A DNA stretch of 64,000 nt from Escherichia phage CMS-2020a. Numbering within the stretch: the first letter of the stretch is position 1; each line of letters opens with the position of its first letter. The notes under the pieces were generated by a model. It saw only the letters and a program-made list of their open reading frames with translations. It did no database searches and had not been told where the DNA came from. The position numbers and the translations under genes were made by a program. Location: sequence record CP053388.1; one strand, 5' to 3'. This document shows positions 23,351-31,599 of this stretch, piece by piece.

Positions 23351-23773
23351 ATGAAATACTCGCTTCTCCCTCTACTAACGTTACCAGTGTTGATGCTTAC
23401 CGCGTGCCAATCACGCCCAATATCAATCCATGACGCCAAACCAGCACCGCAGGCCAAAGTGTTCAAGTATCAAAGCGCAGCGCCAGCTACGTTGGTGGTA
23501 ATGAGAGACACAGGTTTTGTAGGAGCTGGATGTGATGCTTCCATTTTCATCAACGGCGAAACTGTCGCAAAACTGGCTACAGGCGAAAAAGCGACTTTCC
23601 ATTTAAATGCCGGAGTATTAATTGTGGGTGCATCTCTTGAAGGTGCAGGTTTATGTGCTCTAAACCCCGCTCGTCAAGAGCGAGAAACGACTCTGAAGAA
23701 TGGAGACACAAAAGCGTTCAGGGTGTTCACCAGCAATTCTGGTGACATCGACATTCTGCCAACAACTCTGTGA
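23351..23773 (+). CDS. Putative lipoprotein (start adjusted to MKYSLLPLLTLPVLMLTAC)
   Basis: Signal peptide with lipobox L-T-A-C; track ORF begins 14 codons earlier. Confidence 0.55.
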   Translation: MKYSLLPLLTLPVLMLTACQSRPISIHDAKPAPQAKVFKYQSAAPATLVVMRDTGFVGAGCDASIFINGETVAKLATGEKATFHLNAGVLIVGASLEGAGLCALNPARQERETTLKNGDTKAFRVFTSNSGDIDILPTTL

Positions 23774-23777
23774 TGAC

Positions 23778-24302
23778 ATGACAACCAAAGATATTACCTA
23801 CGGTATCCAAGCTGAACTCTGGCCGCGAGATTACACTAACGTTGAAAAACTACTGATGTTCTGGCGCAGAGAACAAATTCCTGTAAGGGTCACTCTCGAA
23901 GATGGCCAGGCGTTTTGCATGTACGTTTATGGCCTCATGCCATCTCGTAACAAAGTTGACCTTTGCCCAGCCCCTTTTGACAAAGAAAATCGTATAAGGC
24001 TCCCACTTGAACGCATTAGTACAATTGAATCAGGTGTGGTTGACAGTATCGCTCACGATTTCAAAGGTCGACTAACAGTTCACCCTGATTATGTCGATAA
24101 TCGGCCATCACGCCGCGATTTTTTTGCAATTTGCAACCAAGCCTACAAAGCAAACAAATCTATAAGGGTGTACATGGCGGATGGCCGTGAAATTGAGGGG
24201 GTGTCAGCAGGTGCAGATGCTTGTCAGGTTACACTACGTGTCGAGAACGGTAGAAAAATAGTTGTTTTGTTCGATTGGGTTGAACGAATTTTGCCTTTTT
24301 GA
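23778..24302 (+). CDS. Hypothetical protein (start adjusted to MTTKDITYG)
   Basis: Track ORF 23700-24302 overlaps the lipoprotein gene; in-frame ATG at 23778 follows the lipoprotein stop. Confidence 0.45.
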   Translation: MTTKDITYGIQAELWPRDYTNVEKLLMFWRREQIPVRVTLEDGQAFCMYVYGLMPSRNKVDLCPAPFDKENRIRLPLERISTIESGVVDSIAHDFKGRLTVHPDYVDNRPSRRDFFAICNQAYKANKSIRVYMADGREIEGVSAGADACQVTLRVENGRKIVVLFDWVERILPF

Positions 24303-24898: not shown

Positions 24899-25549
24899 AT
24901 GGCTAACATTATCATTTCTAAAAAATCCATCGTTGAAGCTGCTTCCATTGTATCCGATGAACTGCGCGAAAAAGCAGATCTGGCAACTCAAACATACAAC
25001 GAACATTATAAAAATGGTACGCACACTAAAGCAGACAAAGCAAATATGCAAGCTGCGACCACTAAACTAGCTTACTTCATCAACAACGTTGTAAACGCTG
25101 TAGAAGACGAAAAATTGTGCTCTGTTTTCTACTATGCGATTAAAGCAAGCAAACAAGCGCCAGAAGTATTTTTTCGTGATGCAATGACTAATAGTTATTC
25201 TCTGGAAAAACTGGTTTATCTGGTTAAATCAATTAAATCTGGTAAATGCATTTATTCCATCGCTGATATGTCTGGATCTCGTGTATTCGCTTTAATCGAT
25301 ATGATTAACGACGAGATCGACACGTTCACCAATGGCGCTGTTTTCGATTTAATGAATGAAGCTAAAAAAGCGTGTGAAATTAAATTGGACGCTGGCTATA
25401 CTCAAGCCAACCAGTTGATCAATCTTTGCGAACGTCTCGGACTTGTTGAAAAAGTCAAAGGAGCTGGGAGCGCCAAAGCTGGTACACAGCAATATCGCTT
25501 TATCAAGAATGATTTCTACAATTATTTAGCTGATGCTTTTAAAGCGTAA
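24899..25549 (+). CDS. Moron protein 1, unknown function
   Basis: 216 aa ORF with strong RBS (aagga) in an AT-rich segment; no motif recognised. Confidence 0.6.
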   Translation: MANIIISKKSIVEAASIVSDELREKADLATQTYNEHYKNGTHTKADKANMQAATTKLAYFINNVVNAVEDEKLCSVFYYAIKASKQAPEVFFRDAMTNSYSLEKLVYLVKSIKSGKCIYSIADMSGSRVFALIDMINDEIDTFTNGAVFDLMNEAKKACEIKLDAGYTQANQLINLCERLGLVEKVKGAGSAKAGTQQYRFIKNDFYNYLADAFKA

Positions 25550-25597
25550 TTAATGGAATCAAGCGCCCACAATGGGCGCTTTAAAGGAGCTTTAAAG

Positions 25598-25801
25598 ATG
25601 GTCAGCTATGACAAGATCCGCGCAGAATATCGCGCAAATTATCGCGCTTATAAACTGGAATTAATCGACGATTTGATCGCGCAACGCGACCAATTAAATT
25701 TTACGTTTTCTGATTTGCTTAACAGCAAGCGAGATTGCAAGCGCAAACGTGAATACTTACGCTTAAGCGCATTAATCGGAAAACTTCAAAATTCTATTTA
25801 A
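25598..25801 (+). CDS. Moron protein 2, small basic protein of unknown function
   Basis: 67 aa from ATG at 25598 with RBS aaggag; the track ORF begins earlier at 25553. Confidence 0.45.
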   Translation: MVSYDKIRAEYRANYRAYKLELIDDLIAQRDQLNFTFSDLLNSKRDCKRKREYLRLSALIGKLQNSI

Positions 25802-25822
25802 TTTTTTTTAAGGAGCTTAATC

Positions 25823-26053
25823 ATGTTTGTTCTTATCGCTGGCGTTAACGTCCATAATGAATATTATGTTAATCGCATCGCTGGGATCGCTGGTTACGCT
25901 GGGCGCGTAGTCGAGCTTATAGACGAAACGACGCGCAAAATTGACTTATTGAGCGACCAGGAGCGAAAAAAAGCAGACGTGAACGACGCTGATATATTTT
26001 TAATGTTAAAAGCGTTCGTAGAAATGGGATTTAAAATCAGTTTACACAAATAA
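25823..26053 (+). CDS. Moron protein 3, small protein of unknown function
   Basis: 76 aa with RBS aaggag 7 nt upstream. Confidence 0.5.
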   Translation: MFVLIAGVNVHNEYYVNRIAGIAGYAGRVVELIDETTRKIDLLSDQERKKADVNDADIFLMLKAFVEMGFKISLHK

Positions 26054-26056
26054 AAT

Positions 26057-26084
26057 CGAGCGCCCACTATGGGCGCTTTTTTCG
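26057..26084 (+). terminator. Rho-independent terminator
   Basis: Hairpin agcgcccactatgggcgct followed by tttttt. Confidence 0.65.
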
Positions 26085-26103
26085 TTTCCAATACACCTAC
26101 CAT

Positions 26104-26129
26104 AACGCGCCAATGATGGCGCGTTTTTA
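26104..26129 (+). terminator. Second stacked rho-independent terminator
   Basis: Hairpin acgcgccaatgatggcgcgt followed by ttttat. Confidence 0.55.
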
Positions 26130-26540
26130 TTGTCTTTAACTCACTCCAACAACATAAAAATAAGCGCCAAAATAACGCCATAGACGCGCTTTTATATCCT
26201 TACCAGTACATGCCCATTACTTAACACATTAACGCGCTTAAAACGCGTTATATTGCGCTATAGAGTATGGTTAATCATTGGCTTTTAGTCTTGCTATGTG
26301 ATCCGCGCTTATTTGTCGGTGCGGATCGGTATTTTGTTTTGTTCTGTATCCGCTCGCGTATTATGTGCGCGTGATTTTTCACTTAATCACACCACTTAAT
26401 CACGTATGTGATTATGCTACGAAAGAAATCTGGATGTCTCAGGTGACGAAAGTCATCATAATTTTCCCCGCTCACCTGTCCGACAACCGCTGGTTGGATT
26501 CCACCAGCTTCCCGATGTTTTTTCTACACAAAGGCGAATG

Positions 26541-26623
26541 CAGCCGTTTCCCGAAAAAATCCTGGCCGTTCCCCCGTCGGCTCATGAATACGTTCCTCGC
26601 CGCTTCTGAAAATTTCCCTGCGG
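26541..26623. repeat. Iteron-like array, type 1, cluster 1
   Basis: agccgtttcccgaaaaa, ggccgttcccccgtcgg, acgttcctcgccgc, cgcttctgaaaatttccctgcgg at about 22 bp spacing. Confidence 0.5.
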
Positions 26624-26669
26624 CAGCTGGTGGCTATAGAGAAAGGGCCGTTTCTGGCCCTCTTCTCAG

Positions 26670-27152
26670 TTACACGCCATCAAGGATGTGGATGCGGTTG
26701 CTTGCGTATACATTCAGCATAAAGTTAGCGCAAAACAGTTTCCATGTATCAACGCCAGCGGTATACGTAATGTTTTTGCATTTAATCGCATTGTTGGCGA
26801 TCCGCATCCCCTGCGATACTGCTTCATCGTCGGAAAATTTGAACGACGATTGAGTTTTAATCCAGACAGAAATCTGCGTAGCGAACTCAATCAGCTTGGA
26901 CTGGCAGAATCGCCCGGAGCGCACCGGAAAGACGAACGTTCCGAATCCAGAATTTACCACATATGCTTTCTCAAATACCCTCGAGTAACGACGATTGCCA
27001 ATGATGTCGCGTGCAATAATGCATTTTTCTTGTGCTGACAGTTCTACCGTCTCATTGTCGCGCCATGCACCAAGTACTCGTTTTTCAATGTCAGAGAACG
27101 TTACAGCGATATTGCCATGTGCGGGTGCGTTTACAGTAGCGATAAAATTCAT
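26670..27152 (-). CDS. Hypothetical protein
   Basis: 160 aa with RBS (aagga) before ATG at 27152 and motif A at 27174-27187; preferred over the overlapping plus-strand ORF. Confidence 0.5.
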   Translation of the reverse strand: MNFIATVNAPAHGNIAVTFSDIEKRVLGAWRDNETVELSAQEKCIIARDIIGNRRYSRVFEKAYVVNSGFGTFVFPVRSGRFCQSKLIEFATQISVWIKTQSSFKFSDDEAVSQGMRIANNAIKCKNITYTAGVDTWKLFCANFMLNVYASNRIHILDGV

Positions 27153-27356
27153 GATTAATTCCTTATCGTAAATAACAAATTGTTTTCTTGTTGGTGTTAA
27201 TTATCGTTGTACGAATAAGGCGTCAAAGTGGAAAGTTGCGGTAGCCGGACGGGAACAGGTGGGTTTGTCGGTTGCCTGGAGGTAAGAGGTTGGTGTTTTT
27301 AGCCTGCGGGAAACAAGATGGTCATTTAAGGCCACCAATGCTGATGGCCTTAATAA

Positions 27357-27500
27357 TTATCGCACGATTACGCTAAGGATCTTTTCCTCAACTGATTTGT
27401 TGTTGCGACTAAACTGCCTTGCGTATCTGATGACAGAAGAGGCGTTTTGCTTTCTGACCATCTCGGCTCTTTCCTTCAGGCGTTTCTTGAAATCGCCCAT
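27357..27500 (-). CDS. Small basic protein (47 aa), hypothetical
   Basis: MGDFKKRLKERAEMVRKQNASSV...; ATG 2 nt after the stop of the upstream gene; below the ORF-track length cutoff. Confidence 0.3.
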   Translation of the reverse strand: MGDFKKRLKERAEMVRKQNASSVIRYARQFSRNNKSVEEKILSVIVR

Positions 27501-29311: not shown

Positions 29312-29671
29312 AAAGCAATCCTTAAACATGTTGTTTTCTTGATGGTGTTATTATCGCAATAACACACAGGCGGAAAAGGATTTTATTCCGGTGAATGTGG
29401 TTTTGGCAGTGAGTTTTCAGGTTCAGTACCGAGTACACTTTTTACATTATTCTGATTTAGTGGCCGAAAGTGGCTGGTGGCAGAGTAATCCTCTCCCCAA
29501 AAACCTACTGAAATCGATTGTGCCCCGTTGGCTGTCTGGCACAATTACGCTGTAGCTGGGCATTCAGAGGGAATCCAGCGGTAAGCAAGTCCGCCTACGT
29601 GAGCGCCTCTCTTCTTCCCGCACATTACAGGTGGGTAGCCGCAACTCTCCCTCTCGCTATACCGGTACGCC

Positions 29672-29806
29672 ACCGTTCCTGAACCGGCATCGAGCCTTCT
29701 CCCGAAATCCACACAGGCAACTCGACCGTTTCTCTGAAAACCTCCAGCCGTTCCCCGAAGGCAACCCAGCCGTTTCTGTAGCGGGATGCAGCCTTTTCCC
29801 TGTATG
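29672..29806. repeat. Iteron-like array, type 1, cluster 2
   Basis: Six copies of (A/G)(G/A)CC(G/T)TT(T/C)(C/T)C: accgttcctgaacc, agccttctcccgaaatcc, gaccgtttctctgaaaacc, agccgttccccgaagg, agccgtttctgtagcgg, agccttttccctgtatgg at about 21-22 bp spacing. Confidence 0.5.
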
Positions 29807-30131
29807 GACCGAAGGCTGACCGTAGGGGTGTTACGGGGGGATAAAATCAGGAGTTGAATAAATACGAAAAAGGAGGCGACACCTCTCCTTCCCTCCCCAC
29901 TTATACATACCTGGCTTCTTCGCTATACATGTTGTGTTTTCTTCGTGTTTTATCTGTCTCAACCTCTCTATAGGCGTTAATGCTCACTCCTTCCAGAACG
30001 TTCTATACGGCGACTATTTCTGTTGGTGAATTGGGTGTGTTGTTTTCTCTGTCGGTGTATGTGGTTTCGTTCGTTTTGCGGTGGTTCTTCTAGGGGGTGT
30101 TCTCGTCGTTTTGGTGATTGTTCTTCTCCAT

Positions 30132-30490
30132 GTATGGAGTAATGGCAGGTGGGCGATTCCTTTCGTTGTTGTGTTTGAGTTGTTTGTCTGGAGTGCGTGA
30201 AGGGCTTTTGTAGTTATTCGTGTATTGGGTAATGGCGTTTCCCGTGATTGTTATGTTTCGTGTCTTTTGGGATTGAGAGAATCCTTGTGGTTACAGGCTT
30301 CGTTGGGGTTTCAGTGATTCTGGTGTTTCTTCGCTGTTTGGGTAATGGCCTGTCGTGGGTATCGCGCGTATGAATGTTTTCGGATTGCCTGTGAAAGTTA
30401 GGTTGGTTGTCCGGTAGCCTGGGGAGAAGAGGTGGGTCTTTTCGGTAGCCTGCCATAAAGAGGTTGGTTGTTTTTGGGAATGGCATGTGT
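30132..30490. repeat. Degenerate tandem repeats in a GT-skewed non-coding tract
   Basis: ggagtaatggcaggtggg (30132), ttgggtaatggcgtttcc (30222), ttgggtaatggcctgtcg (30338), ttgggaatggcatgtgtg (30473) about 100-130 bp apart; only short low-complexity ORFs. Confidence 0.5.
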
Positions 30491-30864
30491 GTTATTTAGT
30501 TGTTTTGTTATACCTGAAAATGAGTTGTTTATATGGTTGTGTAACGCAACGGGAGCGATTTTGAGCGTGTGTTTTTGTTGGTAGTGTGTTGGGTCGTCTG
30601 TGGTGAAAATTGGACGCTGTGGCGCTGTCTGCTGCGTAGAGTTACGGGTATAAGAAGTGATGTGTGAAAACGTCAATTTTTTAGACCAAATCGGGTGAAA
30701 GCGTTGACGTTTCGTTGATCTGTTATTTAGTTGTTTTCTTATTTGTATAAACAACCATAACCTATTGATATTTAAAGATATGATTGCAGCTATGGAAGGG
30801 GAGTAGTGGCGATCAACGGATTCTTATAGAAAAGAATCAAATTGTGACCGCCATTATCAATGTT

Positions 30865-31599
30865 TTACATAGTTTTGTTTAGCAGAGAGAGAATTTCATC
30901 ACTAATTTCACTCGCCTGTTTTATAGCCAATGCAGTTACCTCTTCTATGGTTGGTGACTGTTGATGCTCATGTTTGGTTTCAGTTATGACAATGTGTTCT
31001 TCACCTGAATTTGCGCATAGTGCCGCATTGACGATAAGGTTTGAGTAAGAATTTAGCAGAGCACTGTTGATAAACGCTTTCACGGTATTACTGTCTGCAC
31101 CAAATACATCTTTTCTGACCGCTTCAGCCTCACAGCGAACCCCTGCAGCAACATCGTGAAGAACATGTATGGCCTTGGGGCTTGTTTGTTCACAGTACTC
31201 AATCATTATTGTCGAATTGTTCTGTTCAACAAACGATCTGATGCCTGACGATTCACCCATAGCATCGAAGGCAGCGTGACCCGCACTGGTAGAGATATCT
31301 TCATAGAGTTCTTCATCGCTATCTTTTTCTTCAGGTGTCGAGGTGTCTTCATCGTCGTAATAGATATTGCCTTTAATCAGTGTTTTGGACACTTGATATA
31401 AACAATAAGAAACGAGATTTAAGCATTGGATTTTAGCTGTATTGTCCTTTGTCGCCTCGCTCTTCAGTTCTTTCGCTTCTTCAGTAAGGCTGTTGATAAG
31501 ACTTTGTATTTTTTCCAACGCGTTAGGCGCACACTCCGCGTTGTCCATAAAGAATTTATAACCAGTCCCAGGGATTTCTAAACTTTTCAACTTTTTCAT
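30865..31599 (-). CDS. Hypothetical protein
   Basis: 244 aa ORF downstream of the 99-aa gene. Confidence 0.5.
   Translation of the reverse strand: MKKLKSLEIPGTGYKFFMDNAECAPNALEKIQSLINSLTEEAKELKSEATKDNTAKIQCLNLVSYCLYQVSKTLIKGNIYYDDEDTSTPEEKDSDEELYEDISTSAGHAAFDAMGESSGIRSFVEQNNSTIMIEYCEQTSPKAIHVLHDVAAGVRCEAEAVRKDVFGADSNTVKAFINSALLNSYSNLIVNAALCANSGEEHIVITETKHEHQQSPTIEEVTALAIKQASEISDEILSLLNKTM

What the first reader, a model, noticed from the sequence alone, without database searches (positions are those of the whole stretch)
26299..26416. Operator-like repeat block with tandem CACTTAATCAC and a GATCCGC inverted repeat
Within the non-coding stretch before the first iteron array: inverted repeat gatccgc...gcggatc (26299-26330), then tandem cacttaatcac (26380-26390 and 26393-26403) followed by gtatgtgattatg. 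Tandem plus inverted short repeats next to an iteron array are typical of repressor or initiator binding regions.
Basis: seen in the sequence. Interest (0 to 1): 0.4.

Follow-up and report, generated by a model that had tools for sequence, protein, structure and literature searches.

The report
Short repeat cluster in phage-plasmid spacer
The repeats are real and sit in a 616-base gene-free stretch shared by about 780 SSU5/pHCM2/pMT1-type phage-plasmids, where they most likely form a protein-recognition site beside a terminator hairpin, but their function is unproven and the perfect repeat is specific to this genome.

Summary
Both features are at the stated coordinates. The window is an E. coli SSU5/pHCM2/pMT1-type phage-plasmid.

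**Location.** The block lies in a 616-bp gene-free gap (26054-26669) between convergent genes. The gap matches 784 PLSDB plasmids from at least ten genera, with no gene annotated under the match in most listed records.

**GATCCGC inverted repeat.** It is the stem of a terminator-like hairpin with a T-rich tail on the + strand. It occurs only in the E. coli lineage, and an inverted repeat (IR) this long is common by chance.

**Tandem CACTTAATCAC.**
- It is rarer than chance (3 of 1000 shuffles).
- It is perfect only here: all 24 other unique relatives of this module type have CACATAATCAC.
- What is conserved is a cluster of four AATCAC/GTGATT hexamers (26371-26414).
- The cluster is built on a TTCACATAATCACA box shared with the majority module type.
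- It lies 7-50 nt downstream of a TATNAT box kept in 71 of 73 unique sequences.

**Central module.** This roughly 130-160-nt segment exists in at least four forms and swaps between backgrounds 97% identical on both sides.

**Negative results.** I found no Rfam match, no RNA covariation, no Rep gene, no DnaA-box enrichment and no co-varying regulator.

**Best reading (about 0.35).** A protein-recognition (operator-type) site at the start of a weak rightward non-coding transcription unit.

Interest is moderate.

The parts
26054..26669 (.). Conserved gene-free spacer between convergent genes (76-aa ORF 25823-26053 on +; 160-aa ORF 26670-27152 on -)
   Evidence: ORF list. Annotations of relatives show no CDS here. 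blastn finds 784 PLSDB plasmids, 330 of them covering at least 80% of the gap.
26058..26131 (+). Two canonical intrinsic terminators closing the rightward operon (26058-26085 and 26104-26131)
   Evidence: Terminator scan. Both are near-invariant in alignment A1.
26299..26344 (+). GATCCGC(G)/(Y)GCGGATC hairpin plus T-rich tail (TATTTTGTTTTGTTC): a terminator-like element found only in the E. coli lineage
   Evidence: Scan hit with 11 pairs. It forms a 10-11-bp stem in the MFE folds of the window and of E. fergusonii, with no equivalent in pHCM2, pMT1, Klebsiella or Cronobacter. The 7-bp stem is invariant in 25 type-A sequences. The 8th pair is G-C in 21 and G.T in the window.
26350..26364 (+). 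Family-wide conserved block CCGCTCGCG plus TATTAT (a -10-like TATNAT at 26359-26364)
   Evidence: TATNAT is present in 71 of 73 unique spacers and only position 4 varies: TATTAT, TATCAT, TATGAT. A divergent K. quasipneumoniae relative has AATGAT. There is no -35 at 16-18 bp; TTG lies 19 bp upstream. The promoter scan did not call it.
26371..26414 (.). Cluster of four AATCAC/GTGATT hexamers forming two dyads (GTGATT-N8-AATCAC and TAATCAC-N4-GTGATTA). It includes the reported tandem CACTTAATCAC x2 (26380-26390, 26393-26403).
   Evidence: Variation among 25 type-A sequences is. The core box is shared with type B.
26419..26526 (+). Rest of the variable central module: conserved CGAAAG..ATCTGGATG.CTCAGG, the hairpin GGTGAC-GAAA-GTCATC (26442-26457), the hairpin GCTGGT..ACCAGC (26489-26508) and a T-run (26518-26523)
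   Evidence: Module types A, B, C and D are shown. Cassette swapping is shown.
26527..26660 (.). C-rich repeat units GCCGTTYCY (26543, 26565, 26647, plus a degenerate copy near 26597). This is the most conserved part of the spacer and is paralogous to an array at 29660-29810.
   Evidence: The same two arrays occur in pHCM2.
26638..26667 (-). Terminator hairpin of the leftward 160-aa gene (GGGCCAGAAACGGCCC followed by TTTCTCT on the - strand)
   Evidence: Sequence. Stem changes GGGCC/GGCCC to GGGGC/GCCCC are seen in alignment A1.

Best explanation
The finding joins two unrelated elements of one conserved non-coding spacer.

(1) The GATCCGC inverted repeat is the stem of a rightward intrinsic-terminator-like hairpin. 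It is one more in a series of rightward terminators that insulate the helicase-to-76-aa operon from the converging leftward genes.

(2) The tandem CACTTAATCAC is part of a cluster of four AATCAC/GTGATT hexamers. The cluster elaborates a family-wide TTCACATAATCACA box, through roughly 22-27 extra nucleotides, into two dyads. I infer that this cluster is the recognition site of a sequence-specific DNA-binding protein (an operator-type site). It begins 7 nt downstream of a conserved -10-like TATNAT box. A protein bound there would therefore control a weak rightward promoter. Its non-coding transcript would run through the variable central module into the C-rich repeat array, head-on against the 160-aa gene's transcript.

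Shown: the anatomy, the conservation pattern, the cassette behaviour and the absence of coding or RNA-fold signal. Inferred: promoter activity, protein binding and the identity of the binder.
For: - **Context.** The spacer is non-coding, lies between convergent genes and matches 784 plasmids.
- **Hairpin.** It is called by the terminator scan with a T-rich tail and is stable in the MFE folds of the E. coli lineage.
- **Hexamer cluster.** It is statistically non-random and is kept in 25 of 25 unique type-A sequences. Its core 14-mer is identical in types A and B although the flanks differ, so it cannot form the same hairpins in both. That is primary-sequence conservation.
- **No RNA-fold signal.** There is no compensatory covariation, and the RNAalifold covariance term is unfavourable on both strands.
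- **-10-like box.** TATNAT is kept in 71 of 73 unique sequences, with variation only at position 4.
- **Cassette.** The central module behaves as a discrete exchangeable unit between backgrounds 97% identical on both sides. This is expected of a specificity-determining site.
- **Not coding.** Frame-shifting indels separate close relatives, and invariant runs show no third-position pattern.
Against: - No -35 hexamer lies at 16-18 bp, and the promoter scan reports nothing on the + strand here. Its two hits are on the - strand (26440 to 26411, 26482 to 26455) and total fewer than expected from shuffles.
- No candidate regulator tracks the module. The winged-helix protein p216 is 99% identical between type B and type C loci and sits at the expression floor in the LF82 lysogen.
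- The dyads carry mismatches in 3 of 25 relatives.
- Hexamer spacings (14, 13 and 10 bp) are not in helical phase.
- Types C and D lack the hexamers altogether.
- No transcript data exist for this spacer. A Y. pestis sRNA-seq study lists two pMT1 sRNAs, neither located here.
Confidence: 0.35

Rival explanations
1. Regulatory RNA. The central module is the 5' part of a rightward small or antisense RNA. Its hairpins (GUGAUU..AAUCAC, UAAUCAC-GUAU-GUGAUUA, GGUGAC-GAAA-GUCAUC) are the functional units. The module types are specificity variants of an immunity or incompatibility RNA, as in P1 c4 or P4 CI. The C-rich 3' repeats could pair with the G-rich leftward transcript of the paralogous array at 29660-29810.
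For: - The conserved TATNAT lies immediately upstream.
- Every module type has a hairpin starting 6-9 nt after it.
- GNRA loops are retained: GAAA in types A and B, GTAA in L087.
- Several stem changes are of G.U type on the + strand: CACGTTG/CRACGTG, type C GGRYGTA, and the window's G26307.T26320.
- The + strand 26368-26668 folds with z = -3.8 against -2.4 for the - strand.
- The module swaps as a cassette.
- The two C-rich arrays are 76% similar.
Against: - No Rfam hit, even at E<=1.
- No compensatory pairs, and the RNAalifold covariance term is unfavourable.
- No canonical terminator at the 3' end of the module.
- The A/B-shared 14-mer sits in different structural contexts.
- Dyad-breaking changes occur in relatives.
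- No sRNA was reported at this pMT1 spacer.
Confidence: 0.2
2. Replication-related site. The spacer is a lytic origin or an accessory copy-control locus. The hexamers would be DnaA-box-like or initiator sites. The C-rich 22-nt units would be iteron-like sites paired with the second array near the presumptive plasmid replicon. The AT-richer left part would be the unwinding region.
For: - There are many short direct and inverted repeats.
- Type-A relatives carry a perfect TTWTNCACA box (TTTTTCACA) at 26375-26383, and the window has four 1-mismatch boxes in the spacer.
- Arrays occur in two places about 3.1 kb apart, in both the window and pHCM2.
- Neighbouring genes encode a UvsW-type helicase and a winged-helix protein. 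Its fold hits include Orc/Cdc6 winged-helix (WH) domains and the replication terminator protein (RTP), with weak E values near 0.1.
- GC is 38-40% at 26000-26300.
Against: - No Rep domain appears in any neighbouring ORF.
- DnaA boxes are not enriched: 6 in the window against 7.1 expected, and none is perfect in this spacer.
- GATC occurs only twice.
- No IHF consensus is present.
- There is no GC-skew turn.
- The site lies where transcription converges, not diverges.
- The C-rich units are conserved between lineages whose candidate replicon gene is unrelated. They are therefore not that protein's iterons.
- p216 does not co-vary with the module.
Confidence: 0.15
3. No dedicated function for the reported block. 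The hairpin is a redundant terminator. The tandem arose by a short duplication plus one point mutation in a fast-evolving spacer. Conservation among type-A sequences only reflects their recent common ancestry.
For: - The type-A sequences form a single closely related E. coli clade (within-type p160 identity at least 0.91).
- The perfect tandem is unique to the window.
- An IR of this length is common by chance.
- The module is replaced wholesale in types C and D.
- pHCM2 carries a 17-nt deletion inside the module.
Against: - The TTCACATAATCACA..CGAAAG..ATCTGGATG.CTCAGG block is among the best conserved stretches across genera whose flanking 160-aa protein is only 67-70% identical.
- Four hexamers within 44 nt is far beyond chance.
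Confidence: 0.25

Closest known systems
Intrinsic (Rho-independent) terminators in tandem at the end of an operon
   Same: The GATCCGC hairpin is a G+C-rich stem followed by a T-rich tract. It is co-oriented with, and downstream of, the rightward operon and two canonical terminators.
   Different: The T tract is interrupted (TATTTTGTTTTGTT) and the loop is 12 nt. The element exists only in the E. coli lineage of the family. It lies 245 nt beyond the stop codon.
Promoter-proximal repressor operators of temperate phages and plasmid prophages (for example the P1 C1 operators or lambda-type dyads)
   Same: Short dyad-symmetric repeats lie next to a -10-like box, and specificity variants occur between relatives.
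   Different: The motif occurs only once in the 64-kb window, not as a dispersed operator set. No cognate regulator was identified. A different palindrome, AACAANTTGTT, is the dispersed operator-like motif of this genome.
Heptad arrays (WATCACW) bound by ribbon-helix-helix protein omega of inc18 plasmids (recalled from memory, not tested)
   Same: The hexamer AATCAC fits the WATCACW core and occurs in both direct and inverted orientation.
   Different: The units are not contiguous in a 7-bp register (spacings 14, 13 and 10 bp). The host clade differs, and no RHH gene has been shown nearby.
Antisense immunity or incompatibility RNAs of plasmid prophages (P1/P7 c4, P4 CI)
   Same: It is a non-coding, hairpin-rich cassette of about 130-160 nt that differs between otherwise near-identical relatives.
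   Different: There is no Rfam C4 or other hit, no covariation and no demonstrated transcript or target.
Iteron-type plasmid origins and control loci (P1 incC/incA, RepFIB)
   Same: Two arrays of direct repeats of about 22 nt lie a few kb apart, and DnaA-box-like 9-mers are present.
   Different: No Rep gene lies between or beside them. The repeats stay the same where the candidate replicon gene is replaced. The reported tandem has only two 11-nt copies 13 bp apart.

Membership tests
Intrinsic terminator | G+C-rich stem-loop immediately followed by a T (U) run on the transcribed strand | tested here: met
   The scan hit at 26299-26328 has 11 pairs, 6 of them G-C, and the tail GTATTTTGTT. It folds as a 10-bp stem in the MFE.
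Intrinsic terminator | Conserved in relatives with stem-preserving changes | tested here: inconclusive
   The stem is invariant in the E. coli lineage. The only variable pair is G-C or G.T. The element is absent from the pHCM2, pMT1 and Klebsiella lineages.
Iteron-type replication origin | Three or more direct repeats of 17-22 bp in regular phase | tested here: not met
   The reported tandem has two 11-nt copies 13 bp apart. The separate C-rich units to the right have spacings of 22, about 32 and about 50 nt.
Iteron-type replication origin | Adjacent gene for a Rep initiator | tested here: not met
   Pfam, NCBIfam and PHROGs give no Rep family for any ORF between 23000 and 32000. p216 has only a generic winged helix.
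Iteron-type replication origin | DnaA boxes and an A+T-rich unwinding element | tested here: inconclusive
   The window's spacer has no perfect TTWTNCACA and the window shows no enrichment. There is one perfect box in relatives and four 1-mismatch boxes in the window's spacer. GC falls to 38-40% on the left.
Repressor operator | Dyad-symmetric site | tested here: met
   TAATCAC-GTAT-GTGATTA at 26397-26414 and GTGATT-N8-AATCAC at 26371-26390.
Repressor operator | Overlaps or abuts a functional promoter | tested here: inconclusive
   A conserved TATNAT lies 7 nt upstream. No -35 lies at 16-18 bp and the consensus scan did not call it. Promoter activity cannot be tested with these tools.
Repressor operator | Cognate regulator gene that co-varies with operator type | tested here: not met
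   Within +/-2.5 kb, p216 and p160 alleles are shared at 99-100% between module types B and C. Genome-wide association was not possible.
Known RNA families (Rfam 15, including C4 antisense RNA) | Covariance-model match | tested here: not met
   There are no hits at gathering score in the whole window. Only chance-level hits appear at E<=1.
Structured non-coding RNA (new family) | Conserved secondary structure supported by compensatory changes | tested here: not met
   32 type-B sequences with mean identity 80% were tested. No helix had convincing covariation. RNAalifold gave -37.6 kcal/mol (+) and -39.0 kcal/mol (-), with a positive covariance term.
Omega-type heptad array | Contiguous 7-bp WATCACW units and a neighbouring ribbon-helix-helix gene | tested here: not met
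   Unit spacings are 14, 13 and 10 bp. A ribbon-helix-helix (RHH) gene was not tested. The family definition is recalled from memory.

The most novel reading that the evidence does not exclude
The roughly 130-160-nt central module (types A, B, C, D) would be a swappable specificity cassette for SSU5/pHCM2/pMT1-type phage-plasmids. It would act as an incompatibility or superinfection-immunity determinant, either as a protein-bound cis site or as a regulatory RNA. It would be flanked by invariant sequences (CCGCTCGC-TATNAT on the left, the GCCGTTTCC repeats on the right) that allow exchange by homologous recombination. The window's AATCAC cluster would be the type-A specificity element.
Probability: 0.2. 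Interest if true: 0.65.

Novelty: new variant of a known kind. Interest (0 to 1): 0.38.

Why it matters
SSU5-type phage-plasmids include Yersinia pestis pMT1, Salmonella Typhi pHCM2 and many Klebsiella and E. coli elements that carry ESBL or carbapenemase genes. The closest relative of this window carries blaCTX-M-15. The literature searches made here turned up no description of how these elements control lysogeny, copy number or mutual exclusion.

A 0.6-kb non-coding region kept across the whole supergroup is an obvious candidate control region. It has an exchangeable central cassette and repeat arrays duplicated near the presumptive replicon. It would also give a simple marker for typing compatibility or immunity groups.

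For the specific finding the gain is smaller. It separates a probable terminator from a probable binding site, and it shows that the eye-catching perfect tandem is a one-base accident of this genome.

Tried and rejected
**Ruled out or unsupported**
- **Known RNA families:** none.
- **Large structured RNA:** no covariation on either strand.
- **Small ORFs:** the conserved ATG at 26435 opens a 31-codon frame in type B and a long frame in types A and D. One-nucleotide indels change the frame between relatives, and pHCM2 has a 17-nt deletion. It is not coding.
- **Dam/GATC cluster (P1 pac- or oriR-like):** only 2 GATC in 616 bp, about the chance number.
- **DnaA-box cluster:** not enriched.
- **IHF site:** none, even with one mismatch.
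- **GC-skew origin or terminus signal:** the skew simply follows the coding strand.

**Rejected by eye, not formally tested**
- XerCD/dif-like, Tus-Ter-like, sigma-54 and lambda nut (boxA/boxB) resemblances: each fails core positions.

**Other leads**
- **p216 as the cognate binder:** its allele tracks type A perfectly. But types B and C share 99%-identical p216, and p216 sits at the expression floor in the LF82 lysogen.
- **pMT1 sRNAs:** sR082 and sR083 from the Y. pestis RNA-seq study (PMC3770706) map elsewhere.
- **The 244-aa ORF as Rep:** it is an orphan with one cluster in the protein database, so I did not model it.
- **Type III toxin-antitoxin reading of the 30-nt repeats upstream of the 160-aa gene:** the order of elements is wrong and there is no ToxN-like domain.
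- **A bioRxiv paper on phage-plasmid heteroresistance:** it could not be opened.

Full report
**What the window is**

The region 25500-27500 is 97-98% identical to Escherichia phages CMS-2020a, PhiR41_1 and Cyrano. The spacer itself is 99.8% identical to E. coli plasmid pEcFELIX526.1. These are SSU5/pHCM2/pMT1-type phage-plasmids.

Almost the whole genome is transcribed leftward. The exception is a 4.6-kb rightward module. It encodes:
- a helicase;
- a 92-aa protein;
- a lipoprotein;
- a PF03614 (FljA-type) regulator;
- a 216-aa protein (p216);
- 82-aa and 76-aa proteins.

The finding lies in the 616-bp gap (26054-26669) where this module meets the last leftward gene (160 aa, 26670-27152). The gap is therefore flanked by convergent genes, not by a gene start.

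**Check of the observation**

- An exact near-tandem repeat of 11 nt or more occurs in 3 of 1000 dinucleotide shuffles of the gap.
- A 7-nt inverted repeat with a loop of 20 or less occurs in 46% of the shuffles.
- The 11-mer is unique in the window.
- The hexamer AATCAC/GTGATT occurs 38 times in 64 kb. Four of these fall within 44 nt at 26371(-), 26385, 26398 and 26408(-).
- These four hexamers give two dyads: GTGATT-N8-AATCAC and TAATCAC-GTAT-GTGATTA.

**Conservation of the gap**

The gap matches 784 PLSDB plasmids. They come from Klebsiella, Escherichia, Enterobacter, Yersinia, Salmonella, Citrobacter, Cronobacter, Shigella and others. In 330 of them the match covers at least 80% of the gap, and most listed records have no gene annotated under the match.

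I fetched 11 plasmid or phage loci and 77 IMG/VR loci. Together with the window they gave 73 unique spacer sequences.

The spacer has three parts.
- **Left:** conserved rightward terminators.
- **Centre:** a variable module.
- **Right:** a strongly conserved part with GCCGTTYCY units and TTCCCTGCGG.

The central module comes in at least four forms.
- **Type A:** the window and other E. coli elements; 25 unique sequences.
- **Type B:** the majority form, found in pHCM2, pMT1, SSU5 and elements from Klebsiella, Citrobacter, Enterobacter and Cronobacter.
- **Type C:** a Klebsiella subgroup, with two different hairpins.
- **Type D:** a divergent K. quasipneumoniae element.

Modules swap between backgrounds that are 97% identical on both sides. 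L047 (type C) and L050 (type B) are an example.

**The tandem**

Among the 25 unique type-A sequences, position 26383 is T only in the window. The other 24 have A. The family form is therefore CACATAATCAC followed by CACTTAATCAC, and the perfect tandem is a single-base peculiarity of this genome.

The hexamers themselves are kept, with single mismatches in three sequences.

Type B carries TTCACATAATCACA, which is identical to the type-A family sequence. It is followed directly by CGAAAG..ATCTGGATG.CTCAGG. Type A has about 22-27 extra nucleotides carrying the additional hexamers. Types A and B have different flanks, so the shared 14-mer cannot form the same hairpins in both. What is conserved is primary sequence.

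**The inverted repeat**

The terminator scan reports 26299-26328 as a hairpin with 11 pairs and the tail GTATTTTGTT on the + strand. It is the dominant local structure in the window and in E. fergusonii. It has no counterpart in pHCM2, pMT1, Klebsiella or Cronobacter.

Its 7-bp stem never varies in type A. The eighth pair is G-C in 21 sequences and G.T in the window.

It follows two canonical terminators at 26058 and 26104. I read it as a further, lineage-specific rightward terminator, unrelated to the tandem.

**A conserved -10-like box**

A TATNAT hexamer lies immediately left of the hexamer cluster (26359-26364 in the window). It is present in 71 of 73 unique sequences and only position 4 varies. 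Type D has AATGAT.

The flanking CCGCTCGC is equally conserved. The only TTG lies 19 bp upstream, and the consensus scan did not call a + strand promoter. This is therefore a lead, not a demonstrated promoter.

**RNA or DNA?**

Evidence against a structured RNA:
- Rfam gives nothing.
- In 32 type-B sequences with mean identity 80%, I found no helix with convincing compensatory change.
- RNAalifold gives weak energies with an unfavourable covariance term on both strands.

Hints that favour a + strand RNA:
- GNRA loops are retained.
- Several stem changes are of G.U type.
- The fold z-score is -3.8 for the + strand and -2.4 for the - strand.

A Y. pestis sRNA survey lists two pMT1 sRNAs, both located elsewhere. 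RNA function is not excluded, but the pattern fits sequence-specific recognition better than a fold.

**Replication-site reading**

There is no Rep domain nearby. Other origin signatures are also missing:
- DnaA boxes are not enriched.
- GATC occurs only twice.
- No IHF consensus is present.
- There is no GC-skew signal.

p216 has a confident model (pLDDT 89.7) with a C-terminal winged helix. The Foldseek matches are generic, with E values near 0.1.
- Its allele tracks type A perfectly.
- It is nevertheless 99% identical between types B and C.
- It sits at the expression floor in the LF82 lysogen (CYRAN_113; PMC9928086 supplement).

p216 is therefore not established as the partner.

The C-rich units on the right of the spacer are paralogous to a six-unit array at 29660-29810. 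The same pair of arrays exists in pHCM2, although the adjacent candidate replicon gene there is unrelated. This argues against these units being that protein's iterons.

**Verdict**

The inverted repeat is most simply a terminator hairpin. The tandem is one accidental perfect instance of a conserved hexamer cluster.

The cluster most likely serves as a protein-recognition site at the start of a weak rightward non-coding unit (confidence about 0.35).

The rivals are:
- a regulatory RNA (0.2);
- a replication-related site (0.15);
- no dedicated function (0.25).

The more interesting result is the context. The spacer is unannotated, present across the whole family, and has an exchangeable central cassette. 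It may be a specificity determinant of these clinically relevant phage-plasmids. That reading is untested.

Noticed in passing
window 27239-27327 and 30412-30473: Arrays of about 30-nt direct repeats (CGGTAGCCnG...GGTGGGT..TTTT; 3 and 2 copies) are paralogous (blastn E 2e-9). Each lies about 650 nt to the right of a C-rich 22-nt repeat array. pHCM2 has the same arrangement (L094 15338-15395).
   Followed up: partly
window 29660-29810 (and L094 14583-14710): Six units of about 22 nt, GCCGTTYCYC or GCCTTTTCCC, resemble the right part of the studied spacer (26527-26574 against 29710-29756, 76% identity). They are conserved even where the neighbouring candidate replicon gene differs.
   Followed up: partly
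window 17803, 27174, 27938, 28841, 31959, 32010, 44824, 45553, 55774 and others: The palindrome AACAANTTGTT gives 15 hits against 4.3 expected, with 0 of 100 shuffles reaching 15. Near the studied region (27174, 27938) it sits just upstream of leftward gene starts. It is a candidate dispersed operator or phage-specific promoter element.
   Followed up: partly
window 29900-30700: A gene-poor stretch has extreme strand composition (GC skew +0.4 to +0.55, AT skew about -0.5). It carries four GGTAATGGC-type boxes (30138, 30228, 30341, 30476). pHCM2 has six such boxes in the equivalent 1.4-kb gap.
   Followed up: no
window 30865-31599 (-): This 244-aa ORF is an orphan, with a single cluster in the 5.8-billion-protein search. 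It equals CYRAN_102, one of the few Cyrano genes expressed in the LF82 lysogen. An unrelated 396-aa gene replaces it in pHCM2, and the replicon typing differs (rep_cluster_488 against IncFIB). It is a candidate plasmid replication gene.
   Followed up: partly
window 24899-25549 (+): The 216-aa protein (phrog_1513, no Pfam family) is predicted with pLDDT 89.7 to have a helical N-terminal half and a C-terminal winged-helix domain. It is confined to SSU5-type elements and sits at the expression floor in the LF82 lysogen.
   Followed up: yes
window 23700-24302 (+): The conserved regulator of the rightward module belongs to PF03614 (repressor of phase-1 flagellin, FljA type), E 2.5e-84. It is expressed in the LF82 lysogen (CYRAN_114).
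   Followed up: no
window 25561-25579 and 26059-26077: Nearly the same terminator hairpin (AGCGCCCACnATGGGCGCT) is used twice within 500 bp, after the 216-aa gene and after the 76-aa gene. Relatives show the same reuse.
   Followed up: no
L094 10703-10735 (pHCM2) and L083: A 10-nt tandem repeat, CGTTTTAGCG, in the left part of the type-B spacer varies in copy number between relatives (3.3 copies in pHCM2, more in L083).
   Followed up: no
L096/L097 (Serratia relatives): The p216 homologue (63% identity) sits in a rearranged context. It lies next to a DUF5983 gene and an inverted helicase, has a strong TTGCAC-17-TATAAT promoter, and lacks the conserved spacer elements downstream.
   Followed up: no
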